Origin: a virus
Taxonomy: Duplodnaviria; Heunggongvirae; Uroviricota; Caudoviricetes
Length of the DNA stretch: 64,000 nucleotides
Reading direction: 5' to 3' (one strand)
Virus record (IMG/VR): IMGVR_UViG_3300029615_000411
Location: 119,874-183,873 of that record
The position numbers and the translations under genes are program-made. Positions within the stretch are counted from its first letter, which is position 1; every line of letters starts with the position of its first letter. The notes beneath the pieces were generated by a model. It did not search any database. It saw only the letters and a list, made by a program, of their open reading frames with translations, and was not told the DNA's origin. This document shows positions 4,393 through 50,300 of the stretch, one piece after another.

Positions 4393-4406
4393 CCTATTTA
4401 CTCCTT

Positions 4407-10869: not shown

Positions 10870-11184
10870 TTATCTGTGATAGCGCTTTGTCATGCCAAAC
10901 ATAGCTGCAACCATAATCGCCAAATATGCGTACAAATACAAGTTCTCAATCATTCCAAGAACTGAAATTGTAAGGCTGGCGAACATACCGCAATACAGAA
11001 CAGCACCAATTTTTTTGATGATGAACAGCGTGGCTTGCGCAATGATGGCGACAACGAGAAAAACTTTGATGTATTTAGCCTCAAATAAACCATCCCAATC
11101 GATGGCAAGGAAGATACAAGCCCCCACAGCGAGAGCCCAAACCAAAGCAGCAACAGATGCAACAGCGTCAAAGAAGCTTAACAT
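10870..11184 (-). CDS. small 3-TM membrane protein, paralog B (tandem duplicate)
   Basis: GGAGG 8 nt before ATG 11184; DWDG, AKxxK and MFGMxxRYHR conserved with paralog A. Confidence 0.45.
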   Translation of the reverse strand: MLSFFDAVASVAALVWALAVGACIFLAIDWDGLFEAKYIKVFLVVAIIAQATLFIIKKIGAVLYCGMFASLTISVLGMIENLYLYAYLAIMVAAMFGMTKRYHR

Positions 11185-11237
11185 AGCGAATACCTCCATG
11201 TTTTAAATAGGTTAATGTTCGGACATCTATATAAACA

Positions 11238-11273
11238 GCAAAAAGCCGCCAATGGGACAATCCACTGGCGGCT
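11238..11273 (-). terminator. hairpin plus T-tract after sortase operon / promoter E (GCCGCCAGTGG...CCATTGGCGGC TTTTTG)
   Basis: GC-rich stem plus T5. Confidence 0.55.
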
Positions 11274-11324
11274 CAGTTGCCGATTGCAATAATACAGTTA
11301 AATCATTTGATTTATGTTATGTCT

Positions 11325-11356
11325 CAATTATATTAACTTCGCAGCATAATGCAAGA
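11325..11356 (-). promoter_or_regulatory. class I-like promoter E, divergent copy (TTGCAT-TATGCTGCGAAGTTAAT-ATAATT)
   Basis: Degenerate copy of the core downstream of the sortase gene. Confidence 0.35.
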
Positions 11357-11362
11357 GCTTTT

Positions 11363-12334: not shown

Positions 12335-12345
12335 AATACATCACC

Positions 12346-13509
12346 TTATTCAGCTGCGGCAGACCGCTCGTACACATCAATGCAGTAGTTGCCCATAATC
12401 TTGTTGTACATGCACTCCTGTGCCAAAGGACCTGCCCCATAGGTATCAACGGCGTTATCATAGTTACTGCCAATATAAGCTTTCACTTCATCGACAGACG
12501 GTTTATAGTCCTGTTCCTCTGCCAGATACTGCGCAACAAGGCTCAGTAAAACATTTTCTTCCGTCTGACTACGAAGACTTTCTGAATACTCCTCCGAGGT
12601 CTTATAATTGCTGTATGTCTGAACGAATGTCTCCAAGTCCATATTGTAGGCAGTTGCTTCGTTTTCGACATACTTCAAGTTGGTTTCAAGACTCAGGATG
12701 ACAAGGTCTGTCGTATCCTTTTTGAGTTTTACATTGTCAATGAAATACTGTTCAATCTCATTCTGAATCTTATTCATACGAAGATTCTCTTCAACATATT
12801 CACGAAGCAGGTCTACTGTAGTTACAGCAGTGCCGTCTTGCAGCTTGTAGCCACTCATGATACCGGCAACATCAGCATCTGTCATGCTATATTGAGAAAT
12901 TTTATTAAGCGTTACATGGAAAACAGCTTCCTTGTTGGCGAGTTCGATAGTCTGCTCGCCTGTAGTTCTATCTGTTGTACTGCTATATCCATCAGGGAAT
13001 GTTACCGTAACATCAAACGAATCCCCCGTGTTATGCCCGACGATTTGCTCTTCAAATCCGTCAATAAAGGTATTGGAACCGAGTTCCAAATCGTAGTCTT
13101 CTGTTGTTCCACCGGTAAAAGCAACACCATCAACCGTACCCTCATAGTCAATGTTCACAACATCGCCTTCCTGTGCGGCGCGGTCTGTTACCTCTGTCGT
13201 CAGCTTGTAATTGGACTGAAAATAATCCAACTCGCTTTGAATCTCCTCGTCTGTAACGGCGTATACATCTTTGCTGACCGTATACTTCTTATAATCCTTG
13301 GGCATCTTTATGTATTTGGACGCAGTCACATCACGAAAATACCCGTCATCATCAAGACCGAGGTCATACTCAACAGCGGAAGCTGTTTCGGAGGTGGCTG
13401 TTTCCGCAGTCTCAGATGCACTTGTATCGGCCGTATCTTTACTGCACGCGGTCAATGCAATACATGCAGCACTGATGACCGCCAGAATCATTTTTGCGTT
13501 TTTCTTCAT
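12346..13509 (-). CDS. lipoprotein with FKBP-type PPIase / trigger-factor-like domain; candidate extracytoplasmic foldase
   Basis: MKKNAKMILAVISAACIALTAC signal plus lipobox; GDVVNIDYEGTVDGVAFTGGT...LELGSNTFIDGFEEQIVGH is the trigger-factor/FKBP PPIase signature; AAAGGAG RBS. Confidence 0.65.
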   Translation of the reverse strand: MKKNAKMILAVISAACIALTACSKDTADTSASETAETATSETASAVEYDLGLDDDGYFRDVTASKYIKMPKDYKKYTVSKDVYAVTDEEIQSELDYFQSNYKLTTEVTDRAAQEGDVVNIDYEGTVDGVAFTGGTTEDYDLELGSNTFIDGFEEQIVGHNTGDSFDVTVTFPDGYSSTTDRTTGEQTIELANKEAVFHVTLNKISQYSMTDADVAGIMSGYKLQDGTAVTTVDLLREYVEENLRMNKIQNEIEQYFIDNVKLKKDTTDLVILSLETNLKYVENEATAYNMDLETFVQTYSNYKTSEEYSESLRSQTEENVLLSLVAQYLAEEQDYKPSVDEVKAYIGSNYDNAVDTYGAGPLAQECMYNKIMGNYCIDVYERSAAAE

Positions 13510-13565
13510 GAAAATCTCCTTTATAAAAAGACCCCGGCAGACAGGTTGCCTACCGGGGCAGTATT

Positions 13566-13817
13566 TTAAACGAACAGGAACGGAACGTGAAGCAACAGAG
13601 CGTATGCCGCATCCATAATGCCAATAATAACGGCGGATACAGCACTCACAACAAGAACTGCTCCAGTTCGATGGAGCGTGTTGTGCATACTCGGCCAAGT
13701 CACATTTTTGGGTGCAACCAAATTGTGAAGCTTCTTAGGCGTGCTCTTGACGAAAGAAGGAATTGCCTTCACGAAATTCGCAATAGCCGTTCCTACCTTT
13801 TTCAGTTTATCTTTCAT
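13566..13817 (-). CDS. secE: SecE-like preprotein translocase subunit (accessory copy)
   Basis: KNVTWPSMHNTLHRTGAVLVVSAVSAVIIGIMDAAYALL parallels SecE KKVxWPxxKE...T.VV..V....D; ATGA overlap with upstream secG-like gene. Confidence 0.55.
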   Translation of the reverse strand: MKDKLKKVGTAIANFVKAIPSFVKSTPKKLHNLVAPKNVTWPSMHNTLHRTGAVLVVSAVSAVIIGIMDAAYALLLHVPFLFV

Positions 13818-14068
13818 GCCGCACCTCCTACTCCGGTTACTACGAACATGATGATTGCGATAACAAGCAGAATAGCTGTACATACAGCAACCAGTTTATT
13901 TGCGGACGTTTTCGTGCTGTCTTTAGCATTCGAGCGCATTGTATCACTGATTCCGGTGATAACACTAAGACTGTTCTTGTCGGCCTTATCCATGGAAAGC
14001 GTAACCGCACAAACCAGAACAGAAACCAACAGAATCAAGATGCACAGAATGATTTCATAAATTGCCAT
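13814..14068 (-). CDS. secG: SecG-like translocase subunit (accessory copy)
   Basis: 84 aa, two TM with Gly/Ser-containing loop (LSVITGISDTMRSN...) as in SecG; immediately downstream of secY, translationally coupled to secE-like. Confidence 0.45.
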   Translation of the reverse strand: MAIYEIILCILILLVSVLVCAVTLSMDKADKNSLSVITGISDTMRSNAKDSTKTSANKLVAVCTAILLVIAIIMFVVTGVGGAA

Positions 14069-14083
14069 TGTGTTGCCCTCCCG

Positions 14084-15424: not shown

Positions 15425-15448
15425 TGCTTACTCCTTCCGCGACTGAGA

Positions 15449-17751: not shown

Positions 17752-17782
17752 ACAGGCTCCTCCTTTGGAAGGAGTGACAGAA

Positions 17783-35991: not shown

Positions 35992-38900
35992 TTACTGCTT
36001 CTTTTCCTCGGTTTTATCCTCAGTCTTTTCAGCAGCTTTTTCTTCGCTATCGCCCTTCTTCTTCTTGACGATGACAAATGCGCCAACGCCAATCAGAGCA
36101 ACAACAACGATAACAGGAACGATGATGTCTGCGCCAAAACCAACGCCAGTCTTGTAGTTAACTACAACAGGTGCCGGAGTGGGAGCGGGTTCATTCTTAA
36201 CTACAGGAGTCGGAGTCGGTCTGCTTTCTTCCGGAGGATTCTCCAGCTTAACACTTGCTACCCGAACATCACCGTAGTTGCCTGCCTTATCGACTGTACG
36301 GGTCACAATGTAACCAGTCCAATCGGGACTCAGCTTGAAGGTAACGTAACCGTTGTCCTTATCAATGTTTGTGACATTGACAGTCTCGAACTTGGTTTCG
36401 TCGAAGGTGTAATCGCCCTTAGCACTCTTGGCAATAGCAGAACCATTGACCTTGTAATACTGAATCTTAGCGACACCGGAGTTGTACTCGCCATCCAGAG
36501 CGGAAATAGCAGGAACGGAATCCTTGACCTTTACAACAGGCACGAAGTCAGGGTCTTCGGTATCGTCCTTATCACCGTTTTCGTCGGGAGTAGCAACGCC
36601 ATCGTTACCGTTTTCATCACCGGTCTCGTCGCCGGTTGTGAAGAGAGCGGGCTTACCATGAGCAATACGAAGCGTAGTGGCTTCGGTCTTGTCATCGGTT
36701 GTTTCGGTCTTCTCGGACTCGCTGGGAACTTTCTCCTCGGTACCGGATTCGGTTTCATCCTTCTTGTCGGAATCTTCCTTCTTATCGGTATCGTCGGCAT
36801 CGTCCTTCTTGTCGTCTTCCTTCTCAGGTGCCTTGCCGGTCTCTTCACCAGTAATGAACACATTGATGGTGCTCTCGAACTTGACGAACTTCTCGTTCAG
36901 CAAATCTGTCTTATTGGTGGAATCAACCTTATCGGCAGCGAAAGCAGAAGCAACGACAGGAGCTTCGGTATCAACAGATGTGGTGATAGTTCCCATCTCG
37001 GTAATGGCACCGGTCTTCAGGTCAATCAAGTAATAGGTAGAAGTAACCTTCTCACTATTAGCGGAAATGACCATCTTCTCGGCCCACTCAGCATCGGTCA
37101 GGGAATCGCTGGTTCCGATTGCGTAACCCTTAGGAGCGATAACTTCAACCTCAGAGTTGAAGTACAGGTCACTCAGGTCATCAGTCGTCTTCTTGGTAAC
37201 CTCAACAGGCTTACCGGTCTTTTCGTCAGCCACAGTACCAACGATAGTTGCGGGTTCTACATCGGCAAGATGCAGACGCTGGACTTCGATGTCTCCGGTG
37301 GTAGGCAGGTAATTGTAGTTGTCGTAAGCGCCGCCAACATACTTGAAAGCGTCCTTCGTCAAGCCAACATTACCGAAGATACCATCGATGCTGGAAGCAA
37401 CAATGAGTTCGAAGGAAGGCAGCTTAACGGTTTCAGCAGTCTCGTCGAAAGCGTAACCACTGGTCTTGATTTCGGGAATCTCCGTCTTAGTGCCATACAG
37501 CTTGACGACGGGGTTCGGGTCGAGAGTAACCGTCAGGTCTTTACGAGCGATAACGAACTGACCATCGGCTTCGTTCTTATCGGCATCGACGACATTGATT
37601 GTTACTGCGTAATTCTGCTCAACAGCAGCATCGTAATCAGAGGTAACGGTGTAGGTGTAAGTACCAGCGTTCTTGACATTCTCAGTCTTGAACTGGCTGT
37701 CGCTCTCCACGCCGTCATCGCCGCTGGCGATGTCAGGAGTCAGAGTCGCCTTTGCATCAGCAGTCAAGGGAGCAGTCTGTGCATTGTCGGTGGTCTTATC
37801 GTTCTCGAAAGGAGTATAAACAAGTGCCATCTTCAGGCCCAGAGAATCAGGTTTGACAGCTGCACCGTGTGTACCGTCGCCATTGGTGGCAACAGCATTT
37901 ACGGTGAAGTCGGGGTTAGTGGTATCGCCATAGACGATATCCTTGGGCTCGGTGACAGTGACTTCGACCAGACGTTCGCCAATGGTATAAACGCCATTAA
38001 CAATCGTAATCAGGTAATCGTCATTGTCGTAAGAACCGACCATGTCGTATGCACCGTAATTCTTGACAGATTCGGGCACGCTCTCCGCAACCAGAGAAGC
38101 AGCACCGTCAGCAGACTTCATGGAAATCTCTTCGGCAACCGCATTCTCAACATCCTTCTGAGTGATGCTGATAATAGCTTTCAGGTCATCGCCATTTACG
38201 ATGGTCTTCTTATCGGCATCGCCAGTATAGGTAAGAGTATTGCTCAGTTCAGCCATTTCATTGCCGTAGACAGAACCAACAGTTCCGATGGTCCAAGTCA
38301 GAGGACGCTGAGTGACCGTGTAAGTGCCGTTCATAGCAGTTACTAGATAATCCTGATAAGAAGCCTGACCGACGCGGTGAGCCAGACCGGAGAAGGAAGG
38401 AACAATGTCATAGCCTCCGACATGGCTTGCAGAAGTGACGAGGCACAGGTTCGTGCCTTCCAGAATATCACCATTGACCAGAGCTGCCTTGGCAGTGTCA
38501 CCAGTGTATTCCAGAACGTTCACGGTACCGTAATCAGACCAATCTTCAACAGCAACATCGTCGCCATAGATAGAAGTCTGGGGTTTAGCGGTGACAGTGA
38601 TGGGACGCTTGTCGATAACAAAATCAACGGGAGCGTAAACAAAGGTGTAGTTGTTTGCTGCGGCATTCTCAACATTTGCAGGAACGACCTTGCCGGTACC
38701 AGCGTGAGAAGCTACCGTTGCGGGAGCTCCCTCAGCATCGGTAAAGTTGAAGGTCAGGTTTGCAATGCTCAGGACACCAGCATCATCGGGAGTGGTGTTG
38801 CCCTTGACGGGTTTCACAACGAATCCATCGAAAATCAGGTCATCGCCGGAGAGAACAGGGTTCTCATCGCCGTAAATCTTGCTCTGAGCTGCCAGAGTGA

Positions 38901-41900
38901 CATTCAGAGTAGCAGGAGTGATTTCGAAGGTGTTGTTTACGCGGGTGATGTTGAAGTTGACATCGTCGCCCTCGATAATCATCGGGTGCTTGCCGACATC
39001 TTCACCAGCATCGGTGCCAGCGTCAGGACGAACAACCTTCAGGTTTGCAAGGTCACCTGCATCTTCGCTTACATAGTAAGCGCCGTCGCCAGTTGCAGTC
39101 CAAGTCAGTTCGGGGTCAGCCTCGCCGTAGACCTTCTTCTGGCCTTCGTCAACAACCACGATTACATCGCGCTTATCGACATGCAGAGAACCATCAACAA
39201 AGACGATGGGGTCATAGTTCTTTGCGCCCTTGTTTTCCAGACCGCTCATGGTGATGACATAATCGCCAGCAGCAGGACGAGCAGGAATCTCGGACAGAGA
39301 ACCGTCAGCATTCTTGATGTTGTAGACAACCGAGCCAGTAAATGCGGAAGCAACGGTGTCATTGTTCTTCAAGCCAGTAACGGTGTAGCTGAACGTGGGA
39401 ACGGTGCCGCCATAAATCATGGAGTAACCGCCAGCCACGGTAAAGGTGACCTTAACGGGCTTGATGGTCAGAGTAGCAACTTCCAGAGCCTCGGGCTCAG
39501 TGGTGGAAGAACCAACGTCGACGGAAGTGCCGGAGCCAGTCACGATGGTGATGGCGTAGTTGCCGTACTTGTTGTACAGAGTAGAGCTGATGTGGTATTC
39601 ACCGACATCCTCACCGGCTTTGCGAGTAACAGAGCCGCTCAGAGCACCAGTAGTCAGTTCCAGCGTATTCTTCTTCAGACCATCGTTGGAAATGTTGCCG
39701 GAAATCTCGCTGTAAGAGAATGCGGGGTCTGCATCGCCGTAATCCTTCTCGTAGTTGGAGAAAGTCAGGGTGATGGGACGATGAGTGATGGTGATGGTAG
39801 AATCAATCACCGTCAGGTCGTAGTTGGCAGGCTGTGCGTAGATAGCTTTCAGAGCATAAGTGCCAACGCTTGCGGAAGCAGAAGTTGCACCGGAAGTCAG
39901 GGTAATGCCCTTAAGAATCTTTTCGGCTTCTGCTGCCTGAACATCAGTAGTAGTCAGCAGACCAGTGCCGCCCTTGATGTAATCCTTCACGTTCATAGAA
40001 GTGAGGGTCTCACCATAGGTCTTTTCGGTTTCAAGCAGGTTGATAACGGCAGTACGCTTATTGATGGTGAAGCGAACATCATTGGTGAAGCTGATACGAT
40101 AGTTCTTTGCCATCGTCTGCTCATAGATGTTACCGCTGTAAATCGGATAAGTGCCAGCGTTCTCGCCTGCTTCACGGCTCAGACGAGCCTGTGCGAAGTC
40201 GGCCTTGGGTTCTGCGAAGCTGGTGGTATTGTAGTCGAAGATGACATAGGTATCGTTGACTGCAAAGCTGGGGTCAGTCTCGCCGTAAGTCTTGGACAGG
40301 CCATAGCGAGGAGTGATGGTCAGGGGCATCTGATGAACAATCAGCATGTTCTTGCCATCGGGCTCAGACAGCTTAACGCTGTTTGCGGGCTGGTTATCCA
40401 GACGGAAGGTCAGGTTGTAAGAACCTGCATCGTACAGACCAGAAGCGTTCGCAGTAGCCTCAACGGCGATACGAACAACGCCCAGAGAAACATCCTTGCC
40501 GTCCATCTTGATGTTGACGGTTTCGCCATCGTGGTAAATCTGAGTGCCATCGGAGGTATTCACATTGACGGAAACTTCCTTGGCGATGGTATCGGGCTTC
40601 TTCTCACCGTAAGTAGTCTGCAGTGCGTTGAAGGTGACAGAGACATCAGCCTCGGTGACTTGGAACGTAGCCTGCGGGGCAATCGTTACGATGTAGTTGG
40701 GGTTCTCATCATAAGAGATGGTAGCCTCATAGTTGCCGACAACCGTAGTGGGGTCTTCCCACTTGGTCAGGTCGATGTGGATGTTCAGCGGGCTGCCCTG
40801 CGGGTCAACCACATTGATAGCCTGAGAACCGGTCTCGTCATACAGCGCATAGCTGGGGGTGTTCTTACCGGCAACGCCGTACTTACGGACGCTGTTGGTA
40901 GTACCCTTGATGGTGACAGGCAGTGCATTGATAGTCAGCGTACCGCTTGTACCATCGCTGTAAGTGCCGGTGTAAACGATGTTGTAGTTGGGGTTGGTGT
41001 AACCGGAAACAACAATAGGATAGGTACCAACACCAGTCAGCTTACCAACGGTATTGTCAACGCCATACTTGATGGTGACAGTGCCGCCCAGAGAAGCGAC
41101 GGTATCATGGATGCCAATTTCATCGTTGCTTGCGAAGTTCTTGTATTCCAGTGCGCCGGTAATATCGGCATCGCTGGGATTCTCTGCGCCATACAGACGC
41201 TCACGGTTCGGAACAGTGATGGTCAGAGTACGCTTGGTGATAGTGTACTTATCGGGAGCATTGAAGGTGATGTCGTAGTTCTTGGCGATTTCAGCAGTCT
41301 GGAACTGTGCATCGCTGTAAGCGTAAGAGCCAACAGTCTCGCCGACCTCACGAGTCACAACGCAGCCAGCAAAGTCGGAGCCAACACGGCCGCCCTTGCC
41401 ATTGACGGGGTCAAGAGTAAAGGCAACGCCGCCCTTGGCATCACTGTCGCCGTAAACCTTCGTCTGACCACCCATCACATTGATGGCGATAGGACGCTTG
41501 GTGACGGTCAGCTTGCTGTTGACAAAACGAACCAGATAGTTGTCGTAACGGTCGTAGTTCTTGCCATCGGCATTGGGGTCCCAGTCAGAAGACCAACGCT
41601 CCTGAGAAGCACCCTGCACAGATGCGCTGACGGTGTATTCGCCAACATTGGCAGTTGTAGGAGTGCCGCTGTTGCCAGCCGCATCTACCATAGTAAAGCC
41701 AAGCTTGTCCTCGGTCAAACCGATGCTTGCCTGTGTATCGTTCAGCTTGAAACCTTCGATGGATTTAATCTTGCCGGAACGAGCAGCGCCATACATTGCG
41801 GACAGGTCATCGAGAGTGACAGTCAGCATTGCAGGATGGATGATGTACTTGCTGTTGATGACCTTGACGTCATAGTAAGCAGTGCATGCAGGGGGAACTT

Positions 41901-43944
41901 CGACAGTCATCGGATATTCGCCAACATTCTTATTGTCGATATCCTGACGCTGTGTTGTCAGAACCATGCTGACCAGCTTGTTCACACCGTCATCAGCGGT
42001 GATGTCAGAACCGGCGACAATACGCTTGTCGGAGGCCACTGCCTGAGCAGCACCGTTATAAGCAACAGCGTCGAAGGTGATGGTGGAAGACTTGCCCTTT
42101 TCAGCCTCACCATAGATGGCATCAATCTGGTCATTGGTGATGGTTACGTTACGCTTGGTAATTTCAAACGTTGCGGTAGCAAGGTTGATGTTATAACCAT
42201 TGATAGGCGCATTCGTCTGGATATTGCCGATTGTAACAGTGTAGCCACCGGGAGCAGAGGTGATGCTGGGCAGAACAACGGTGGGTTCACCGCTCAGACC
42301 AAGCATCTCTTTCAGAGCAACTGTGTTGGACTTGTGCTCGTTGTTGGTCTTATACTCGAAATTCGTCTTATCGGTATCAGACCAGCCGGTAATCACGAAG
42401 TCAACCTGAGGATTCTGCTGACCATACTGACGAGTGGCTTTGCTGCCGGTCGTCTGTACGCCATCATTGCCCTTGAAGACAAATACAGGAGTCAGGGTCA
42501 GAGTCTTTTCAGAAACGACAACATACACATCGCCGGTATTGGGCTGAATGTCGATGTTGTAGTTTGTGTTGCTCTTCGCGGAGGAACCTAAGATGATTTT
42601 GTAAGAACCGGTAGTGTCCTTATCAAAGTTCTCTGTGGTCAGAACATCCGCAGGAAGCAGGTCGCCGTCAACCAGACCACCATTGGTGTCCATGACTGTG
42701 TAGTTAATCTGGCTGATGGTATTGCCCTTCGTAACATAAGTGGTATGAGGGACAATGTAAATCTGACGCTTGTTGATAGTCACGCCCGTGTCATTGCGGA
42801 TATCCTTAGAAGAATCCAAGTTGGAACCGTCAATGATGGTGTAATTCAGACCATTCACAGTAACGCTTATGGCACCTGTATCAACATAAGTCGGATAAGT
42901 ACCGGCATTGCAATGAATGTCTGTGGGATTCTGGCCGTCGCCGTCAGCCGGAGCGTACATAATGAAGCTCAGACCGTCGATAGCTGCCTGAATATCCTTT
43001 TCGACTTCCTGAGAAGTACGGGAATCAGCAGTGCTGTATTCGATGGTCAGACCCTTAGACTTGAAGGAGTCACCGTATGTGTAGGTAACAGTCTGAGGCA
43101 GAATGTGAATAACATTCTCCTGACCGCTAATCTTGGTATACTGAATACCAGTGCCTGCGGCAATCTGCTTACCAGTCTCAGCAGCGGTGATTGCCTGATA
43201 GTCCCCGATGACAGTCGTAGAACCGCCGCCATCAAACGCGCTGGCACCGCTGTTGTCTACGGGGTTTTCCTGACGGTCGCAAACCTGCAGATACAGGTCA
43301 GACATATCAAGGTATGCACTCATGACGGGCTCGGCGACCTGCTCATCCTCGCTCAGAGAATAATACATGTCCTCAATGGGTTCCCAGTCATAAACTGCAT
43401 CCAATTCCTCAGTGCGACGCGTGACCATCGCATCAAGAACCGCATTTTCCTTGTCAGCCTGCCATGCCTTGCTTGCAAGACCGAAGTTGTTTGCAGCAGT
43501 CAGAATTTCATCTTTACGGCTTACAAGGGCGTTAGCCGCATCGATAAATGCCTGTGCTGCTTCACTGATGCTGCCAGTGGTAGAAGCTTCGCTGGAAGTG
43601 CTGGTGCTTGCACCAGTATCAGAGGCAGCACTGTTTGCGTAGGCAGTGGTCGTTTCAGACCCCGCCTGACTTGTAGCCTCAGAAGAAACATCGCTCGTCA
43701 CAGAAGTGTCGCTGGACGCGGAACTTGCTGTGTCGGTAACATCGCTTTTCGGCGCGGGAGTAGTAGCGGAAGAGTCGGAGTTTGTTGTCGTAGTGCTGAG
43801 TGCATCAGTTTCCTTCGGAGCTTCTTCACTCTGCGTGATTCCACTCGCGCTCTCCACTGCATAAGCAGTGACAGGAGCAAACTGAGACAGGCACATTGCT
43901 ACGGCGACAATCGCACTCAAAAACCGCTTACGAGGTTTCTGCAT
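35992..43944 (-). CDS. giant secreted cell-wall adhesin (2650 aa): signal peptide, S/T-rich N-terminal region, many MBG-like repeat modules, C-terminal NYKTG sorting signal
   Basis: AGGAGGG RBS before ATG 43944; signal peptide MQKPRKRFLSAIVAVAMCLSQFAPVTAYA; recurring YG...KVYGD.DP...NY.IT repeats; ends NYKTG + TM + KKKKGD. Confidence 0.8.
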   Translation of the reverse strand: MQKPRKRFLSAIVAVAMCLSQFAPVTAYAVESASGITQSEEAPKETDALSTTTTNSDSSATTPAPKSDVTDTASSASSDTSVTSDVSSEATSQAGSETTTAYANSAASDTGASTSTSSEASTTGSISEAAQAFIDAANALVSRKDEILTAANNFGLASKAWQADKENAVLDAMVTRRTEELDAVYDWEPIEDMYYSLSEDEQVAEPVMSAYLDMSDLYLQVCDRQENPVDNSGASAFDGGGSTTVIGDYQAITAAETGKQIAAGTGIQYTKISGQENVIHILPQTVTYTYGDSFKSKGLTIEYSTADSRTSQEVEKDIQAAIDGLSFIMYAPADGDGQNPTDIHCNAGTYPTYVDTGAISVTVNGLNYTIIDGSNLDSSKDIRNDTGVTINKRQIYIVPHTTYVTKGNTISQINYTVMDTNGGLVDGDLLPADVLTTENFDKDTTGSYKIILGSSAKSNTNYNIDIQPNTGDVYVVVSEKTLTLTPVFVFKGNDGVQTTGSKATRQYGQQNPQVDFVITGWSDTDKTNFEYKTNNEHKSNTVALKEMLGLSGEPTVVLPSITSAPGGYTVTIGNIQTNAPINGYNINLATATFEITKRNVTITNDQIDAIYGEAEKGKSSTITFDAVAYNGAAQAVASDKRIVAGSDITADDGVNKLVSMVLTTQRQDIDNKNVGEYPMTVEVPPACTAYYDVKVINSKYIIHPAMLTVTLDDLSAMYGAARSGKIKSIEGFKLNDTQASIGLTEDKLGFTMVDAAGNSGTPTTANVGEYTVSASVQGASQERWSSDWDPNADGKNYDRYDNYLVRFVNSKLTVTKRPIAINVMGGQTKVYGDSDAKGGVAFTLDPVNGKGGRVGSDFAGCVVTREVGETVGSYAYSDAQFQTAEIAKNYDITFNAPDKYTITKRTLTITVPNRERLYGAENPSDADITGALEYKNFASNDEIGIHDTVASLGGTVTIKYGVDNTVGKLTGVGTYPIVVSGYTNPNYNIVYTGTYSDGTSGTLTINALPVTIKGTTNSVRKYGVAGKNTPSYALYDETGSQAINVVDPQGSPLNIHIDLTKWEDPTTVVGNYEATISYDENPNYIVTIAPQATFQVTEADVSVTFNALQTTYGEKKPDTIAKEVSVNVNTSDGTQIYHDGETVNIKMDGKDVSLGVVRIAVEATANASGLYDAGSYNLTFRLDNQPANSVKLSEPDGKNMLIVHQMPLTITPRYGLSKTYGETDPSFAVNDTYVIFDYNTTSFAEPKADFAQARLSREAGENAGTYPIYSGNIYEQTMAKNYRISFTNDVRFTINKRTAVINLLETEKTYGETLTSMNVKDYIKGGTGLLTTTDVQAAEAEKILKGITLTSGATSASASVGTYALKAIYAQPANYDLTVIDSTITITHRPITLTFSNYEKDYGDADPAFSYSEISGNISNDGLKKNTLELTTGALSGSVTRKAGEDVGEYHISSTLYNKYGNYAITIVTGSGTSVDVGSSTTEPEALEVATLTIKPVKVTFTVAGGYSMIYGGTVPTFSYTVTGLKNNDTVASAFTGSVVYNIKNADGSLSEIPARPAAGDYVITMSGLENKGAKNYDPIVFVDGSLHVDKRDVIVVVDEGQKKVYGEADPELTWTATGDGAYYVSEDAGDLANLKVVRPDAGTDAGEDVGKHPMIIEGDDVNFNITRVNNTFEITPATLNVTLAAQSKIYGDENPVLSGDDLIFDGFVVKPVKGNTTPDDAGVLSIANLTFNFTDAEGAPATVASHAGTGKVVPANVENAAANNYTFVYAPVDFVIDKRPITVTAKPQTSIYGDDVAVEDWSDYGTVNVLEYTGDTAKAALVNGDILEGTNLCLVTSASHVGGYDIVPSFSGLAHRVGQASYQDYLVTAMNGTYTVTQRPLTWTIGTVGSVYGNEMAELSNTLTYTGDADKKTIVNGDDLKAIISITQKDVENAVAEEISMKSADGAASLVAESVPESVKNYGAYDMVGSYDNDDYLITIVNGVYTIGERLVEVTVTEPKDIVYGDTTNPDFTVNAVATNGDGTHGAAVKPDSLGLKMALVYTPFENDKTTDNAQTAPLTADAKATLTPDIASGDDGVESDSQFKTENVKNAGTYTYTVTSDYDAAVEQNYAVTINVVDADKNEADGQFVIARKDLTVTLDPNPVVKLYGTKTEIPEIKTSGYAFDETAETVKLPSFELIVASSIDGIFGNVGLTKDAFKYVGGAYDNYNYLPTTGDIEVQRLHLADVEPATIVGTVADEKTGKPVEVTKKTTDDLSDLYFNSEVEVIAPKGYAIGTSDSLTDAEWAEKMVISANSEKVTSTYYLIDLKTGAITEMGTITTSVDTEAPVVASAFAADKVDSTNKTDLLNEKFVKFESTINVFITGEETGKAPEKEDDKKDDADDTDKKEDSDKKDETESGTEEKVPSESEKTETTDDKTEATTLRIAHGKPALFTTGDETGDENGNDGVATPDENGDKDDTEDPDFVPVVKVKDSVPAISALDGEYNSGVAKIQYYKVNGSAIAKSAKGDYTFDETKFETVNVTNIDKDNGYVTFKLSPDWTGYIVTRTVDKAGNYGDVRVASVKLENPPEESRPTPTPVVKNEPAPTPAPVVVNYKTGVGFGADIIVPVIVVVALIGVGAFVIVKKKKGDSEEKAAEKTEDKTEEKKQ

Positions 43945-44259
43945 GTTAGTTGCCCTCCTAATAATGTGAGTGTTCTGTGGTTTTACCACAGCCGGATTTA
44001 TATACACCCTTACCTACTCCCTAGTGTGCAGCCTCGATTGTAGATAAGAAAGTATATCAAAACACAAGCAATCAAATCGCATATTTACAATATGCCACAA
44101 AAAAGACAGAAAAGTCAATCAAAAATTTTGACACAAAAATGCCACCCATGAACGCATTCTCATATTTCATATGGACATGGATGGTTGAAACATTAACGCA
44201 AAACCTGCTTGACTATAGCTATTATTTGTTCTGAGAAATTTGATGCTGTATTTATATCT

Positions 44260-44371: not shown

Positions 44372-47300
44372 TTATTCAGCGGAATCATCCTTATGGTTAT
44401 CTTTGTTGTCGTTTTCGTCCTTCTTGCGCTTGTGGTTTACTACCACCAGAGCAGCGACGCCAATGCCAACCATTGCTACCAGACCAACAATGCTCTGTGC
44501 AAATCCGATACCCGTCTTCTTGTTGCTCGTGAAGATAGAGAAGAGGGAGAAGGGTTTGCCGTCTACCTTGAAGATATCGAGCCATCCAATCGGCGGGGTC
44601 GGAGTAGGCTTCGGGTTGTCAGGAGTCGGAGTAGGCTTCGGGTTGTCAGGAGTCGGAGTCGGCTTAGGCTCGTCAGGCGTTGTGGGAGTAGAGGGCTTCA
44701 CAACAGGGACTTTCACCTCGTTGGAAGGTTTCTCTACATCTTCATCAATCGGCTTGGACGGGTCCTTACCATGACCCGGATTCTCGGGGTCTTCGGGATT
44801 CTGACCCGGAGCCTTAGCGACAGCCACGTTAATGACATCGTGTCCGGCATCCGCGTCAACGGCAACATAAGAATAGGTCAGAGTGAAGGATTCGCCAACA
44901 GGGATACGAACAATAGTGAACGTTGTCGTTGCGCTATTGTAAGTATATTCATCACCGTTCTGGGCTTCAATATGGCTTGCGCCGTCATTGTTGTCCTTTA
45001 CGGTTACATTGACAAGGTCTACTTCACCGGTATTGGTTACTACCACACGATAATTGATGGTTTCACCGACATTGACTTTCGTCTTGTCAGCACTCTTCAC
45101 AATCGTGAGGCTCTTTTCGAGCGGAACATCCGTTTCCGTACCGGAACCCGGAACTTCCACATCGACCTTGTTGGACGGAATATCCGTATCAGGGTCAATC
45201 GGTTTCGTCGGGTCTTTACCCTGTCCGGGATTCTCCGGGTCTTCGGGGTTCGTACCGGGAACATGAATCGTCGCTACGTTTTCAAGAATGTGCGTAGTCA
45301 CATCGGCGATACCGACAGTATAAGCGTAGTGGACAACCACATCGCCGCCAGCAGGAATCGTGTCGATGGTGAATACACCATTCTCATAGTGATAACCAGC
45401 GCCATCCACTGCGAAAATGCTTCCGGAGAAGTTATTCTCATCAGTCAGAGCAGCATTCTGAATATCGTGGTCTTTGCCATTGTGTACCGTTACGGTATAG
45501 GTGACAGTCTCACCCGGCTTTGCGACAGTCTTGTTTGCAGACTTCCAGATGGTGACAACGCCATCATCAGGCTTCTTCACATCGACTGTATTGGACGGGA
45601 TATTATACTGCTCGCCATCGTGCGTGTACTTAATGGTTGCGGTATTTTCCATAACGCTCTCATCGGTCGTCTCTACCGTATAGGTATAAACGATATCAAG
45701 AGCCTCACCGGCATCCAGATAACCGATAGTCCAAGTGCCGTCTCCGTTATAGGTATAGCGGTTAGAACTCTCAGCCGTAACATCACCCGCAAAGTTGTTA
45801 TGGTCTGCGACAGTGATATCGTTTACGGTTTCATCTGTCGTGTTCTTCACCGTAATGGTGTAGGTCACAACATCCGTTACCTTAGCAATATACTTATCGG
45901 CATCCTTTTCAACATCGATAGGCGGTGTCGGGTCTTTCACAACAGCAGCGTTCAGAACCTTAGGAGCATCAGCGGTAACTACCACATAGGTGAAGTTAAG
46001 CGTTACGCTCTCGCCAGCCTTTACAGTGCTGATGGTATAGGAGTTGTCGCCGTTATCCGCAACGCCATCCATGGGCACAAAGTTGAGCGTTCCGTTGCCA
46101 TCGAAGAAGTCTTCGACCACAACATTTTCCGCATCAGCCTTGCCTTTATTGGCGACAGTAACCGTATAGTTGAGCGTATCGCCAACCTTGGCCTCTGCCT
46201 TATCAACGGACTTGGTGATTTCGATTACAGGAATCTCTGTTTCGGTTTCAGAGCCGGGAACTTCCACATCAACCTTGTTGGACGGAATCTCCGTATCGGG
46301 GTCAATGGGTTTCTCGGGGTCTTTGCCGTGACCCGGATTATTCGGGTCTTCGGGATTCGTGCCGGGAACATGGATTGTTGCAATGTTTTCGAGAATCTGC
46401 GTGGGCACATCAGCAATTTCAACCGTATAGGTGTAGTGGATAACCACATCACCGCCTGCGGGAATCTTATTGATTGTGAATTCGCCGTTCTCGAAGGTGT
46501 AATCTGCACCTTCAACGCTTACGATTTCGCCAGCAAAGTTGTTGGTGTCTGTCAGACGAGCGTTTTCGATGTCGTGATTCTTTCCGTTATGAACCGTGAC
46601 GGTATAGGTTACAACCTCACCCGGCTCAGCCTTTGTCTTATCTGCAGCCTTGCGGATGGTGACAACACCATCATCGGGCTTCTCGACATCGACGGGGTTG
46701 GACGGGATATTGTAATCTGTGCCATCCTTGCTGTAAGTCACATTTGCAATGTTTTCGATGACGGTGGCATCCTCAGCCTGCATCGTATAGGTGTAGGTGA
46801 TATAGATGGTCTCGCCAGCGGCAATAGTCGGGATAGTCCACGTCTTATTGCCATTGTAAGTGTACTTGTCAGCGTTTTCGGCCTTGATTTCGCCCTTGAA
46901 GTTGTTAGTATCGGTGACAGTTACATTGTCAACAGACTCAGAAGTGGTGTTCTTCACGGAAATCGTGTAGGTTACAACCTCATCAACCTTTGCAATGTGC
47001 TTGTCGGCTTCCTTCTCGACGTCAACAGGCGGTGTCGGGTCTTTGATTACTGCGGCGTTCAGTACGAGAGGTTCGTCTCCTTCAACTACAACATAGCTGA
47101 AACGAAGCTTTACGCTCTCCCCTGCCTTGACCGTAGAAATAGTGTAGGTGTTGTCTCCGTTATCTGTCACACCATCCATGGCCTTGAAGTTCAGCGTTCC
47201 GTTTCCGTCAAAGAAGTCCTTAATCAGGATATTCTCAGCATCCGCGTTACCGCCGTTCTTGACAGTGACGGTGTAGTTTAGCGTATCACCAATCTTGGCA

Positions 47301-50300
47301 GTAGGCTTATCTACAGACTTGGTAATAGAGATTTCCGGAATCTCGGTCTCAACTTCGGAACCGGGGACTTTCACTTCGACCTTATTGGACGGAATGTCCG
47401 TATCGGGGTCAATAGGTTTATCCGGGTCCTTGCCGTGTCCGGGATTCTCAGGGTCTTCCGGATTCGTGCCGGGCACATGTGCCGTGGCAACATTTTCCAG
47501 AATGTGAGTGGGTACATCTGCAATCTGCACCGTGTAGGTGTAGGTCAGAACAGCGTCTGCACCAGCAGCAATCTTATCGATTACAAAGTGTCCGTCAACG
47601 AACTTGTAGCCGACACCATTCGTGCCGGTAATCGTTCCAGCAAAGTTGTTGGAATCGCTTACGACCACATTGGTGATGTCATGCGCCTTGCCGTTGTGAA
47701 TCGTAACCGTGTAGGTCACGACCTCACCGGGTTCTGCAATCTTCTTGTCACCGCTCTTGACAATCGTAACTTCGCCATCCTTCGGGACAACGACTTCAAC
47801 GGGGTCTGCCTTGATGACATACTCGCCGTCATCGGTCGTGTAGCGAACATCAGCTTCGTTGACCAGCGTAGAGGGGTCGGTAGTCTTCACCGTATAGGTG
47901 TAGAGAATATCGATGCTCTCACCAGCCTTGATGCTGGGGATAGTCCAAGTATGGTTGCCATTGTAGGTGTACTTGGCGTTGTCTTTAGAAGTGATTGCAC
48001 CTGTAAAGTTGTTGGTGTCGCTGACCAGCAGGTCGGTAACGGTCTTATCAGTCGTGTTCTTCACCGTGATGGTGTAGTTGACGACTTCATCGACCATCGC
48101 TACATGCTTGTCTGCGGTCTTCTCGATGTCAACGGGAGGCGTCGGGTCTTTCACAACAGCAGCGTTCAGGACCATCGGCGCATCTCCGGCAACGACCGTG
48201 TAAGTGAAGCGGAGCGTAATGCTCTGACCCTTCTCCACATTCGCAACCGTGTAGGTGTAATCACCGTTATCCGTCACACCGTCCATCGGAACGAAGTTCA
48301 GGACACCGTTACCGTCAAAGAAATCCTTAACGACAGCGTTCTTGACTGCCTGTCCGCCAACATTCGTCAGCGTAATCGTGTAGTTCAGCGTATCCCCAAC
48401 CTTGGCTTCTGCCTTATCTACACTCTTAACGATTTCGAGCTTGCCTTCCGGCACATCAACATGCGTGCCGTCACCGGGAACCTCAACATCGACCTTGTTG
48501 GAAGGAATCTCCTCGTCAGGGTCGCCGGGGTTCTTGCCGGGAACGTGAGCCGTTGCAATGTTTTCAAGAATCTTGGTCGGAACATCGGCAATCTGGACTG
48601 TGTAGGCGTAACGGACCACTGCGTCACCGCCAGCAGGAATCTTGTCAATGACAAATTCGCCGTTGGTGAACTTGTAGCCAGCGCCATCTACGCCTTCAAT
48701 CTTGCCCGCGAAGTTGTTCGCGTCAGTCAGACGGACATTCTTGATGTCGTAATCCTTACCGTTGTGAATCGTAACCGTATAGGTAACGACCTCGTTCGGC
48801 TCAGCCTTGGTCTTGTCGGCAGTCTTAAAGATGGTAACGACACCATCGTTAGGCTTTTCGACTTCGACGGGGTTGGACGGAATATCGTAGTCAGTACCGT
48901 TGTAGCTATAACGCACATCGGCAGTGTTTTCAATGACAGTTTCATCGTTTGCCTGCATCGTATAGGTGTAGGTAATGTCGATGGACTTGCCGGATTCGAG
49001 CGTTGCGATGGTCCAAGTCTTATCACCGTTGTAGGTGTAGCCCTTGCCATCTTTGCCTTCGATTTCGCCCTTGAAGTTGTTCGTATCGCTTACCAGCAGA
49101 TTCGTCAAGGTGTCCTTGGAATTGTTCTTCACCGTAATGGTGTAGGTAACAATCTCATTAACCTTAGCGATATGCTTGTCTGCGCTCTTCACAATATCCG
49201 TGGACGGTTTGGGAGTTGTGATGACTGCCGCGTTCAAAACCTCAGGCGCGTCTCCGTCAACTACCACATAGGTGAAGTTGAGCGTTACGCTTTCGCCAGC
49301 CTTGACGCTTGCAATCGTGTAAGTGTCATCACCGTTATCGGTGACGCCATCCATAGCCACGAAGTTCAGTGTGCCCTTGCCGTCGAAGAAGTCCTTGACT
49401 GTGACATTCTCAGCATCGCCCTTGCCGTTGTTCTTGACAGTAATCGTGTAGTTCAGAGTATCACCGACAGCGGCTTCACTCTTGTCTACACTCTTCGTCA
49501 GAACAAGGTCAGGAATCTTGGTTTCAGTTTCGGAACCCGGAACCTCAACATCGACAGGATTCGAAGGAATCTTCTCATCGTTATCGATAGGCTTATTCGG
49601 GTCTTTACCGTGACCGGGGTTGTTCGGGTCTTCGGGATTCGTTCCGGGAACATCAGCCGTAGCGATGTTTTCCAGAATCTGAGTAGGCACATCACCAATT
49701 TCAACCGTGTAGGTGTAGGTCAGAGTGACCGAAGCGCCTGCGGCAATCTCAGCGATATGGAACTCGCCGTTCTCGAAGGTGTAATCTGCGCCGTCAACGC
49801 CAGTGATTTCACCAGCGAAGTTATTAGCATCGGTTACTACAACATCGTGAACATCGAAGCCCTTGTTGTTAGTAACGGTGACATTGTAGGTGACGACCTC
49901 ACCCGGCTTAGCCATCTTCTTGTCCGCTTCCTTGTGGATGGAGACAGTGCCCTTATCGGGTACGACCACATCGACAGTCGGCGTATCAAGCTTAACGGTA
50001 TTACCGTTCTCGGAATACGTCACATCAGCCTTGTTCTCGAGGAGCTTCTCATCATTGCTCTGTACCGTGTAGGTATAGGTAATGTCGATGGTCTCCCCTG
50101 CTCCGATTTCCGGAATCGTCCAAGTATTATCGCCGTTATAGGTGTACTTGTCTGTATTGGCGGCATTGATGCTGCCAACAAAGTTATTGGTATCCTTGAC
50201 AGTGACATTCGTCTTTGCCTTGGTATCGGGGTTATACACGCTGATGGTGTAGGTCACGATTTCATCGACAAATGCGAACTTCTTGTCAGCCGTCTTGGTG

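What the first reader, a model, noticed from the sequence alone, without database searches (positions are those of the whole stretch)
12346..13509. Trigger-factor-like FKBP PPIase built as a lipoprotein, placed between the Sec genes and the sortase
Trigger factor is normally cytosolic and ribosome-bound. Here the same PPIase signature (GDVVNIDYEGTVDGVAFTGGT...LELGSNTFIDGFEEQIVGH) sits behind a lipoprotein signal (LTAC). That places it on the outer face of the membrane, where it could fold the proline-rich giant substrates as they emerge from the accessory channel, much as PrsA does. A foldase dedicated to one secretion operon would be unusual.
Basis: partly seen in the sequence, partly recalled or inferred. 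Interest (0 to 1): 0.65.

Follow-up and report, generated by a model that had tools for sequence, protein, structure and literature searches.

The report
Membrane-anchored trigger-factor-like foldase on a megaplasmid
The gene encodes a trigger-factor-type chaperone/prolyl isomerase that has swapped its ribosome-binding domain for a lipoprotein signal, so it most likely folds exported proteins outside the membrane; it sits in the already published SecYEG–sortase–giant-surface-protein module of gut "Hodor" megaplasmids, and similar lipoprotein versions are common on Clostridia chromosomes.

Summary
Window 12346-13509 (-) encodes a 387-aa protein with three parts:
- a textbook lipoprotein signal (MKKNAKMILAVISAACIALTA-C22);
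- a disordered Ser/Thr/Glu tether;
- a trigger factor (TF) body made of linker, FKBP PPIase and C-terminal chaperone domain.

It lacks the TF ribosome-binding domain and its GFRxGxxP motif. The six pocket residues I recall for the E. coli TF PPIase site are conserved.

The gene lies between SecY-SecG-SecE and a class-B-like sortase, upstream of two giant proteins. Both giants end in N-x-K-T-G, a TM helix and a basic tail.

The interpretation (a PrsA-like extracytoplasmic foldase) is well supported by inference, but three details are off:
- The SecY is canonical-type, not accessory SecY2.
- The giants are not proline-rich (4.0-4.7% Pro).
- The architecture is not unique. 30 of 80 loci from species-representative genomes (mostly Clostridia) carry stand-alone lipobox-TF paralogs.

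The locus matches the "Hodor" conjugative megaplasmids (bioRxiv 2026, PMC12934698). That preprint already reports this module and proposes that the "trigger factor" chaperones the giant proteins. Its main text does not mention the lipoprotein anchor or the missing ribosome-binding domain.

Verdict: real, a modest new variant of a known kind, moderate interest.

The parts
13516..13521 (-). Ribosome-binding site AAGGAG, 6 nt upstream of the ATG at 13509
   Evidence: Read directly from the sequence
13444..13509 (-). Lipoprotein signal peptide, residues 1-22. n-region MKKNAK, h-region MILAVISAACIA, lipobox L-T-A-C with Cys22 as the predicted lipidated residue.
   Evidence: PS51257-style rule met. 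Conserved in homologues.
13372..13443 (-). Ser/Thr/Glu/Ala-rich tether, residues 23-46 (SKDTADTSASETAETATSETASAV)
   Evidence: AlphaFold2 pLDDT is below 50 for residues 1-44. Low-complexity composition.
13186..13371 (-). Residues 47-108. Roughly residues 70-108 match the trigger factor inter-domain linker (E. coli TF ~119-150); residues 47-70 align only loosely to the tail of the TF N-domain. The ribosome-binding domain proper is absent.
   Evidence: The TIGR00115 alignment starts at profile position 108. PDB alignments to 1w26 and 1t11. No GFRxGxxP motif.
12907..13185 (-). FKBP-type PPIase domain, residues 109-201. Pocket residues F131, Y139, I149, F152, Y175 and F197, plus a 10-residue insertion (179-188) relative to E. 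coli TF.
   Evidence: Pfam FKBP_C E 1.3e-16. Residue-by-residue alignment to E. coli TF 1w26. F131, F152, Y175 and F197 invariant, I149 nearly invariant.
12349..12879 (-). All-helical C-terminal chaperone (TF C-domain-like) module, residues 211-387
13531..13559 (-). Terminator-like hairpin (13 pairs, 8 G-C, T-run) between SecE and the TF-like gene
   Evidence: Agrees with the separate SecYGE and TF-srtB transcripts reported in PMC12934698.
11363..12334 (-). Class-B-like sortase, 323 aa. Acidic N-tail, TM anchor, His in FGHSNG, Cys in LSTCSG, and Arg 10 residues after the Cys. Its ATG lies 11 nt after the TF stop codon, and an AAGGTGA RBS overlaps that stop.
   Evidence: TIGR03064 class B sortase E 5.7e-22, 78 bits, below the cut-off of 153.75. 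Junction sequence. Translation.
11243..11274 (-). Terminator-like hairpin after the sortase gene
13566..13883 (-). SecE. The true start is probably Met23, near 13817.
   Evidence: Pfam SecE E 7.6e-8. TIGR00964 30.1 bits, above the cut-off of 27.55. Alignment to the L001 SecE begins at residue 36.
13814..14068 (-). SecG-like small membrane protein, 84 aa
   Evidence: Pfam SecG E 0.0018 and TIGR00810 E 3.9e-4, both below their cut-offs. Named SecG in PMC12934698.
14084..15424 (-). SecY, canonical type rather than SecY2
   Evidence: TIGR00967 330 bits against a cut-off of 253.6. TIGR02920 SecY2 146 bits against 249.6.
35992..44007 (-). Giant surface protein. The ORF is 2671 aa, about 2650 aa from MQKPRK. 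It has a Sec signal peptide (..VTAYA|VE), seven MBG_2 domains and a C-terminal NYKTG + TM + KKKK sorting signal.
44372..64000 (-). Giant surface protein, at least 6521 aa; the ORF is still open at the window edge. Pro-rich C-terminal stalk, then SNKKTG + TM + KRKK.

Best explanation
The gene encodes an extracytoplasmic, lipid-anchored paralogue of trigger factor (a "lipo-TF"). It is exported, lipidated on Cys22 by the host Lgt and cleaved by Lsp. It then hangs from the outer leaflet on a roughly 25-residue flexible tether.

There, its TF-type chaperone cradle and FKBP prolyl isomerase would hold and fold polypeptides as they leave the Sec channel. That is the job the parvulin-type lipoprotein PrsA does in bacilli.

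On this Hodor megaplasmid the gene is co-transcribed with a class-B-like sortase and lies next to plasmid-borne SecY/G/E. Its preferred clients are therefore most likely the two giant MBG-domain surface proteins (over 2,600 aa and over 6,500 aa). These must stay unfolded but soluble during very long translocation and be handed to the sortase through their N-x-K-T-G sorting signals.

Shown: the domain architecture, loss of the ribosome-binding domain, a conserved lipobox, a conserved PPIase pocket, conserved synteny, and the sorting signals.

Inferred: lipidation, outside topology, PPIase and chaperone activity, and client identity.
For: - Architecture: FKBP_C E 1.3e-16. TIGR00115 trigger factor E 7e-50, aligned only to profile positions 108-371 of 410. 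A family profile hits trigger factors at E 1e-34 to 1e-15, with only marginal SlyD FKBP hits besides (E ~6e-4).
- Ribosome-binding motif: no GFRxGxxP in this protein or in any of the 120 top homologues.
- Lipobox: the rule is met at Cys22 and in 101 of 113 homologues. Residues 1-44 are disordered in the model.
- Catalytic pocket: F131, Y139, I149, F152, Y175 and F197 align to E. coli TF F177, F185, I195, F198, Y221 and F233. They are invariant or nearly so, except position 139.
- Synteny: SecY-SecG-SecE | lipo-TF-SrtB is conserved in a homologue at 58% identity on a 296-kb contig. There SecY is 60% and SrtB 68% identical.
- Transcription units: terminator-like hairpins flank the TF-srtB pair, and only 11 nt separate the two genes. 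PMC12934698 reports TF+srtB co-transcription and proposes that the TF chaperones the giants.
- Clients: both giants end in N-x-K-T-G + TM + K/R tail.
- Interchangeability: PrsA fused to the TF ribosome-binding domain replaces TF in E. coli (PMC6858329).
Against: - No experiment exists. Lipidation, topology and activity are all predictions.
- Pfam Trigger_C (19.6 bits against 22.7) and TIGR00115 (170 against 180.2) fall just below their curated cut-offs.
- "Dedicated" is weak. Chromosomal lipo-TFs stand alone, with no sortase or SecY homologue within about 10 kb. Some mobile-element copies also lack Sec genes, so the family looks like a generalist foldase.
- From my own knowledge, TF PPIase activity is dispensable for TF function in E. 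coli. Catalysis may therefore be secondary to holdase activity.
- The giants are not enriched in proline.
Confidence: 0.7

Rival explanations
1. It is a general-purpose extracytoplasmic foldase with no client specificity. The megaplasmid carries an extra copy, along with extra SecYEG, only to raise the host's overall secretion and folding capacity. Its position next to the sortase would then be incidental operon packing.
For: - Stand-alone lipo-TF paralogues occur in 30 of 80 species-representative loci, mostly Clostridia.
- None of them has a sortase or SecY homologue nearby.
- The F. prausnitzii copy sits among housekeeping and restriction-modification genes.
- TF-type cradles are promiscuous (title of PDB entry 3gty).
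Against: - The TF-SrtB pairing and the whole module co-diverged between two deeply split plasmid groups.
- The module is among the few genes shared by both groups, according to PMC12934698.
- A third mobile-element homologue (47% identity) also has a sortase gene about 0.5 kb downstream.
Confidence: 0.15
2. It is a sortase-coupling factor. The tethered TF body mainly captures the Pro-rich C-terminal stalk and sorting signal of the giants and presents them to SrtB. It would act as an assembly chaperone for anchoring rather than a folding catalyst for the whole protein.
For: - It is co-transcribed with srtB rather than with secYGE.
- The only Pro-dense segment of the larger giant (24 Pro per 100 aa) lies immediately before the sorting signal.
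- TF-sortase adjacency recurs on another element.
Against: - No known sortase needs a PPIase partner (my own knowledge).
- Chromosomal lipo-TFs lack adjacent sortases.
- There is no direct evidence of an interaction.
Confidence: 0.1
3. It is a cytoplasmic or cis-side chaperone, as the annotation "trigger factor" implies. The N-terminal hydrophobic stretch would be an uncleaved anchor that parks a TF body on the inner face of the membrane beside the plasmid's SecYEG. There it would keep giant pre-proteins export-competent.
For: - 18 of 120 homologues have an uncleaved-looking TM anchor with basic residues on both flanks.
- PceT-type TF paralogues act in the cytoplasm on export substrates (titles cited; my own knowledge).
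Against: - This protein and all close homologues have a canonical lipobox with a basic n-region, which predicts N-in, C-out and cleavage.
- The acidic Ser/Thr-rich tether after the Cys is typical of Gram-positive surface lipoproteins (my own knowledge).
- The ribosome-binding domain is absent.
Confidence: 0.05

Closest known systems
Bacterial trigger factor (Tig; TIGR00115; PDB 1w26, 2mlx, 1t11)
   Same: Same linker-FKBP-C-terminal cradle body. E 7e-50 to the family model over positions 108-371. The PPIase pocket residues I recall are conserved. Best structural matches.
   Different: It lacks the roughly 110-residue ribosome-binding domain and the GFRxGxxP motif. It carries a lipoprotein signal and tether instead, so it cannot dock on L23 and is predicted to work outside the membrane. 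It has a 10-residue insertion in the FKBP domain. It scores below the equivalog cut-off (170 against 180.2 bits).
The "trigger factor" of the Hodor megaplasmid surface module (Yuan et al., bioRxiv 2026, PMC12934698)
   Same: By gene content this is the same locus type:
- hyp-SecY-SecG-SecE, TF-class B sortase, giants of about 2,642 aa and over 7,300 aa with MBG domains, and ParM;
- elements of roughly 300-390 kb, some originally filed as huge phages. The 99%-identical copy lies on a 345,980-bp IMG/VR contig.
The preprint already proposes that the TF chaperones the giants.
   Different: The preprint's main text never mentions a lipoprotein signal, FKBP, or the missing ribosome-binding domain (0 occurrences of 'lipoprotein' and 'FKBP'). 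Its supplements were not readable here. Identity with a named Hodor genome could not be checked by sequence.
PrsA (parvulin-type lipoprotein foldase of Bacillota) and the plasmid-borne PrtM of Lactococcus
   Different: The PPIase is FKBP-type, not parvulin; no Rotamase hit appeared in Pfam. Sequence homology is to TF, not to PrsA. This is an analogue, not a member.
PceT/RdhT, the trigger-factor paralogues of organohalide respirers
   Same: A TF paralogue without the ribosome-binding domain, encoded inside the operon of its exported client. This is a precedent for a dedicated TF (Morita 2009 and Maillard 2011, cited in PMC8905343; domain details are from my own knowledge).
   Different: PceT is cytoplasmic and binds Tat signal peptides. 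It has no signal peptide or lipobox.
FKBP-type lipoproteins (Streptomyces lividans Sli-FKBP; Mip-like proteins)
   Same: A lipid-anchored FKBP PPIase that aids folding of secreted proteins (PMC6833217).

Membership tests
Trigger factor (Tig, TIGR00115 equivalog) | N-terminal ribosome-binding domain with the GFRxGxxP signature | tested here: not met
   The alignment to the family model starts at profile position 108 of 410. No G[FYW]RxGxxP motif in this protein or in the 120 top homologues.
Trigger factor (Tig, TIGR00115 equivalog) | Central FKBP-type PPIase domain with the aromatic pocket | tested here: met
   FKBP_C E 1.3e-16. F131, Y139, I149, F152, Y175 and F197 align to E. coli F177, F185, I195, F198, Y221 and F233. 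The list of E. coli pocket residues is from my own knowledge.
Trigger factor (Tig, TIGR00115 equivalog) | C-terminal helical chaperone domain (Trigger_C) | tested here: inconclusive
Trigger factor (Tig, TIGR00115 equivalog) | Whole-protein score above the curated cut-off | tested here: not met
   170 bits against a cut-off of 180.2
Bacterial lipoprotein (Lgt/Lsp substrates; PROSITE PS51257-type signal) | Basic n-region, uncharged h-region, and an [LVI..][AST..][AGS]-C lipobox with Cys at position 15-35 | tested here: met
   Cys22 passes the rule as coded. It is conserved as LTAC, LAAC, LAGC or ITAC in homologues down to 38% identity. No dedicated predictor (SignalP or LipoP) was available.
Bacterial lipoprotein (Lgt/Lsp substrates; PROSITE PS51257-type signal) | Actual diacylglyceryl modification and signal peptidase II cleavage | not testable with these tools
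   Needs labelling, mass spectrometry or globomycin experiments
PrsA foldase family | Parvulin (Rotamase) PPIase domain | tested here: not met
   No Rotamase family appears in the Pfam scan at E up to 1. The PPIase is FKBP_C.
PrsA foldase family | Lipoprotein anchor plus a TF/SurA-like helical chaperone module | tested here: met
Accessory Sec system (SecA2/SecY2, Asp1-3, glycosyltransferases) | SecY2-type channel | tested here: not met
   The SecY scores 330 bits on canonical TIGR00967 (cut-off 253.6) and 146 bits on SecY2 TIGR02920 (cut-off 249.6).
Accessory Sec system (SecA2/SecY2, Asp1-3, glycosyltransferases) | SecA2, Asp1-3 and Gtf genes in the locus | tested here: not met
   None appeared among the 34 window ORFs scanned with Pfam. 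The rest of the roughly 346-kb element was not examined.
Hodor megaplasmid surface-associated module (PMC12934698) | hyp-SecY-SecG-SecE, trigger factor + class B sortase, and two sortase-anchored giants (about 2,642 aa and over 7,300 aa) | tested here: met
   Gene order and sizes in the window match the description. The 99%-identical copy lies on a 345,980-bp IMG/VR contig.
Hodor megaplasmid surface-associated module (PMC12934698) | Rep_3, ParA/ParB and T4SS backbone; nucleotide identity to a curated Hodor genome | not tested
   Only a ParM/Alp-like gene lies in the window. The Hodor sequences are on Figshare and were not available here.

The most novel reading that the evidence does not exclude
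Lipobox-bearing trigger factors that lack the ribosome-binding domain form a widespread, so far uncharacterised class of extracytoplasmic foldases in Clostridia. They would be the TF/FKBP counterpart of PrsA. Megaplasmids and other mobile elements have recruited one lineage as a foldase functionally coupled to their own SecYEG and sortase. That coupling would make export and wall-anchoring of surface proteins over 7,000 aa long possible.
Probability: 0.4. Interest if true: 0.6.

Novelty: new variant of a known kind. Interest (0 to 1): 0.42.

Why it matters
Trigger factor is the textbook ribosome-docked chaperone. A lineage re-targeted to the outer face of the membrane would show that the TF cradle works without ribosomes or ATP in the extracytoplasmic space. 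It would link TF with PrsA, SurA and PpiD-type chaperones through a natural example. It might also explain how many gut Clostridia fold secreted proteins.

For the Hodor megaplasmids it refines the published model. The "trigger factor" would act after, not before, translocation of the giant adhesin-like proteins that probably mediate plasmid spread. The gene is prevalent: 1,236 sequences fall in its 90%-identity cluster.

Tried and rejected
- Phage or plasmid identity by DNA. Megablast of 11000-16000 against PLSDB plasmids and INPHARED phages gave no match. tblastn found only distant TF homologues.
- Huge-phage origin. IMG/VR holds a 99%-identical copy on a 346-kb "viral" contig. PHROGs gave only two unknown-function hits among 10 proteins. 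The ParM-like gene and the Hodor preprint argue for a conjugative megaplasmid that was mis-filed as a phage.
- Accessory Sec (SecA2/SecY2). Rejected on the model scores.
- Host assignment. No close copy exists in 185,579 species-representative genomes. The best hits are 39-40% identical lipo-TFs of Faecalibacterium and Gemmiger, so the host remains unknown.
- Prior description of lipoprotein TFs. Phrase searches of the paper library found nothing relevant. That is absence from this library only.
- Jakob et al. 2015 on the PrsA structure (PMC4319002) is not held. The preprint's supplements are not held either.
- Sortase or SecY genes next to chromosomal lipo-TFs. None found by tblastn.
Full report
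**1. What is in the sequence**

Window 12346-13509 on the minus strand is an intact ORF of 387 codons plus a stop. Its ATG at 13509 lies six bases after an AAGGAG ribosome-binding site.

Upstream, between it and the preceding gene, is a strong terminator-like hairpin at 13559-13531, with 13 pairs and a T-run. The next gene starts 11 nt after the stop codon, and its AAGGTGA RBS overlaps that stop. A second hairpin follows that gene at 11274-11243.

The protein begins MKKNAKMILAVISAACIALTAC|SKDTADTSASETAETATSETASAV. This is a basic n-region, a 13-residue uncharged core, the lipobox L-T-A-C with Cys22, and an acidic Ser/Thr-rich stretch. A PROSITE-PS51257-style rule, written from memory and coded, is satisfied at Cys22.

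**2. What the protein is**

- Pfam finds FKBP_C at residues 109-201 (E 1.3e-16). It finds Trigger_C at 244-345 with 19.6 bits, just under the cut-off of 22.7.
- The NCBIfam trigger factor equivalog TIGR00115 matches at E 7e-50 (170 bits, cut-off 180.2). The match covers only profile positions 108-371 of 410. The first ~107 positions, which form the ribosome-binding domain, have no counterpart.
- The TF signature G-F-R-x-G-x-x-P is absent from this protein and from all 120 best database homologues.
- A profile of 28 family members hits trigger factors in the PDB at E 1e-34 to 1e-15, plus only marginal SlyD FKBP matches (E ~6e-4).
- In the residue-level alignment to E. coli TF (1w26), F131, Y139, I149, F152, Y175 and F197 align to F177, F185, I195, F198, Y221 and F233. 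From my own knowledge these are the aromatic and hydrophobic pocket of the TF PPIase site, and F198A is the classic inactive mutant.
- F131, F152, Y175 and F197 are invariant in the family alignment, and I149 is nearly so. A 10-residue insertion (179-188) is family-specific.
- An AlphaFold2 model built from the alignment is confident (mean pLDDT 85.4, pTM 0.73), except for residues 1-44, which are below 50.
- Foldseek against the PDB ranks full-length trigger factors first: E. coli, V. cholerae, chloroplast TIG1 and T. maritima, at E 5e-12 to 3e-9 over 306-337 columns.

The protein is therefore a trigger factor body (linker, FKBP domain and C-terminal cradle). Its ribosome-docking domain has been replaced by a lipoprotein signal and a flexible tether.

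**3. Is the signal real or a chance match?**

The database search returned 5,253 homologues. Among the best 120 (38-98% identity), 101 of 113 near-full-length proteins pass the lipobox rule. A looser scan gives 100 of 120 with a lipobox and 18 more with an N-terminal TM anchor.

The lipobox persists as LTAC, LAAC, LAGC or ITAC while the surrounding residues diverge. That is selection, not coincidence.

**4. Context**

Upstream on the same strand lie:
- SecE at 13566-13883, with the true start probably at Met23;
- an 84-aa SecG-like gene;
- SecY at 14084-15424;
- a zinc-ribbon "hyp" gene.

The SecY is canonical-type: 330 bits on TIGR00967 (cut-off 253.6) against 146 bits on the SecY2 model (cut-off 249.6). 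No SecA2, Asp or glycosyltransferase genes appeared among the 34 window ORFs scanned with Pfam. "Accessory channel" in the SecA2/SecY2 sense therefore does not apply.

Downstream is a 323-aa membrane-anchored enzyme. It matches class B sortase at E 5.7e-22, below the cut-off. It has His, Cys (LSTCSG) and an Arg 10 residues after the Cys.

Further along are a ParM/Alp7A-like gene, a Dam methylase, a flotillin, and two giant genes. One is about 2,650 aa, with a signal peptide, seven MBG_2 domains and the ending NYKTG + TM + KKKK. The other is at least 6,521 aa, still open at the window edge, and ends SNKKTG + TM + KRKK.

A shared N-x-K-T-G motif before a TM helix and a basic tail is the layout of a cell-wall sorting signal. 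From my own knowledge it resembles class-B-type motifs such as NPKTG.

Proline is unremarkable overall: 4.7% and 4.0%, with a median of 4 per 100 aa. Only the C-terminal stalk of the larger giant reaches 24 per 100 aa.

**5. What the element is**

- No near-identical DNA exists in PLSDB or INPHARED.
- IMG/VR holds copies at 99% and 97% identity on contigs of 345,980 and 88,901 bp. All neighbouring genes are 91-100% identical.
- None of 185,579 species-representative genomes has a close copy. The best are 39-40% identical lipo-TFs of Faecalibacterium and Gemmiger.
- A 58%-identical homologue on a 295,666-bp contig has the same order: SecY, an 80-aa gene, SecE, lipo-TF, then a sortase-like gene. 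There SecY is 60% identical, SrtB 68% and SecE 41%.

A literature search then found the description of exactly this system: the "Hodor" conjugative megaplasmids of the human gut (Yuan et al., bioRxiv, 22 Feb 2026, PMC12934698). According to the preprint:
- The curated genomes span 211-389 kb and were first noticed inside huge-phage collections because they encode sortases.
[quoted passage not shown] - Metatranscriptomes show SecY-SecG-SecE as one unit and trigger factor + sortase B as another. This matches the two hairpins found here.
[quoted passage not shown]"

Its main text contains no occurrence of "lipoprotein" or "FKBP". The supplements could not be read. The match to Hodor rests on gene content and sizes, not on a direct sequence comparison.

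**6. How common is the architecture?**

I classified the 80 loci retrieved from species-representative genomes:
- 45 encode canonical TFs with the signature motif.
- 30 encode TF bodies without the motif but with a lipobox N-terminus.
- 5 could not be classified.

The lipobox group includes Faecalibacterium, Gemmiger, Acutalibacteraceae, many Lachnospiraceae, Johnsonella, Tyzzerella and others.

Other contexts:
- The F. prausnitzii copy, which NCBI names "trigger factor", is a stand-alone gene between a malic enzyme and a restriction-modification system.
- No chromosomal lipo-TF locus has a sortase or SecY homologue within about 10 kb by tblastn.
- Two other mobile-element lineages carry a lipo-TF without Sec genes. 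In one of them (47% identity) a sortase gene follows about 0.5 kb downstream.

The architecture is therefore a widespread paralogue family that mobile elements have borrowed. It is not an invention of this operon. Phrase searches of the held literature found no paper describing lipoprotein or extracytoplasmic trigger factors.

**7. Most likely mechanism**

Inference. The pre-protein is exported, lipidated at Cys22 and cleaved by the host Lgt and Lsp. The TF body is then held a few nanometres above the membrane by the ~25-residue tether. There it binds unfolded segments as they leave the Sec channel, prevents aggregation or premature folding, and catalyses slow prolyl isomerisations. This is what PrsA does in bacilli.

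Support from established knowledge:
- PrsA fused to the TF ribosome-binding domain replaces TF in E. coli (PMC6858329).
- An FKBP-type lipoprotein aids secretory folding in Streptomyces (PMC6833217).

Co-transcription and tight coupling with srtB suggest the two giants are the favoured clients, as does co-divergence of the whole module. Each giant carries over 100 to over 300 prolines simply because of its length.

How exclusive that relationship is remains open. The generalist alternative and a sortase-hand-off role are listed as rivals. A cytoplasmic role is unlikely given the lipobox and the lost docking domain.

**8. Verdict**

The core interpretation (a PrsA-like surface foldase of TF ancestry) is the best-supported reading.

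- The SecY is not an accessory SecY2.
- The giants are not proline-rich.
- A dedicated foldase is not unprecedented. PceT is a dedicated TF paralogue (papers cited), and PrtM is a plasmid-borne dedicated PrsA-like lipoprotein (my own knowledge).
- The module, including a chaperone role for its "trigger factor", is already published as a preprint.

What appears new is the lipoprotein topology, the loss of the ribosome-binding domain, and the existence of a broad chromosomal lipo-TF family in Clostridia. Novelty: a new variant of a known kind. Interest: moderate.

Noticed in passing
window 44372-64000 (-): The giant ORF listed as 6521 aa is still open in frame at the window edge, so it is truncated by the window. 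The Hodor preprint gives 7,309-7,704 aa. The listed N-terminus (MVNPDIK...) is therefore internal, which explains the missing signal peptide.
   Followed up: yes
window 35992-36200 and 44372-44600 (-), C-termini of the two giants: Both giants end with a shared N-x-K-T-G motif (NYKTG, SNKKTG), then a TM helix and a K/R tail. This is a candidate sorting signal for the adjacent class-B-like sortase. The larger giant is preceded by a PTPTP-type stalk with 24 Pro per 100 aa.
   Followed up: partly
window 13814-13883 (-): The SecE ORF as listed (105 aa) overlaps the SecG-like ORF by 70 nt. The 58%-identity relative has a 74-aa SecE, and the alignment starts at residue 36. The real SecE start is probably Met23 (MKDKLKK), near 13817.
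   Followed up: partly
window 14084-15424 (-) and L001 8123-9448: A complete, canonical-type SecY with SecE and a SecG-like gene is carried on a mobile element, with no SecA among the window ORFs scanned. Whether it forms a separate channel that uses the host SecA was not examined.
   Followed up: no
L088 (IMGVR_UViG_3300023499_000220, 345,980 bp) and L089: Copies of the whole region at 97-99% identity are filed in IMG/VR as viral genomes. The window's gene content (ParM-like gene, sortase, Sec genes, only 2 PHROG hits among 10 proteins) fits a megaplasmid mis-filed as a huge phage, as the Hodor preprint argues.
   Followed up: partly
L003, L008-L014, L020, L023-L025 and other genome loci: Stand-alone chromosomal genes for lipobox-bearing, ribosome-binding-domain-less trigger factors occur in Faecalibacterium, Gemmiger, Lachnospiraceae, Acutalibacteraceae, Johnsonella and others (30 of 80 loci). 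NCBI names the F. prausnitzii one simply "trigger factor". A sub-clade (for example P0073 and P0089) has an uncleaved-looking TM anchor instead of a lipobox.
   Followed up: partly
L006 8001-10169; L004 8001-9149: Other mobile-element-like contigs carry lipo-TF homologues at 47% and 38-41% identity without Sec genes. These contigs include a serine recombinase, N6/N4 methylase, pEK499_p136, RtcB and SHOCT. On L006 a small Pfam Sortase gene follows about 0.5 kb downstream, so the TF-sortase pairing recurs.
   Followed up: partly
window 15724-16401, 17098-17808 (-): Zinc-ribbon or treble-clef proteins (zf_Tbcl E 1e-9; a weak zf-CHY hit) lie just upstream of SecY. The first is conserved at 46% identity in the other plasmid group and is probably the "hyp" of the published module. 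Its function is unknown.
   Followed up: no
window 3628-4413, 5390-6187, 8385-9095, 24209-25318, 29037-29555, 31224-32759 (-): Other annotated genes in the window: a radical-SAM/4Fe-4S protein, an Api92-like DUF1281_C protein, a PIN7 nuclease, a ParM/Alp7A-like actin, a Dam methyltransferase and a flotillin/SPFH protein. Most remaining ORFs have no family match.
   Followed up: no
window 12382-12414 (-), residues 366 and 376: Two cysteines lie 10 residues apart in the last helix of the mature protein (QECMYNKIMGNYC). Only one of them is kept in more distant homologues, so a conserved disulfide seems unlikely.
   Followed up: no
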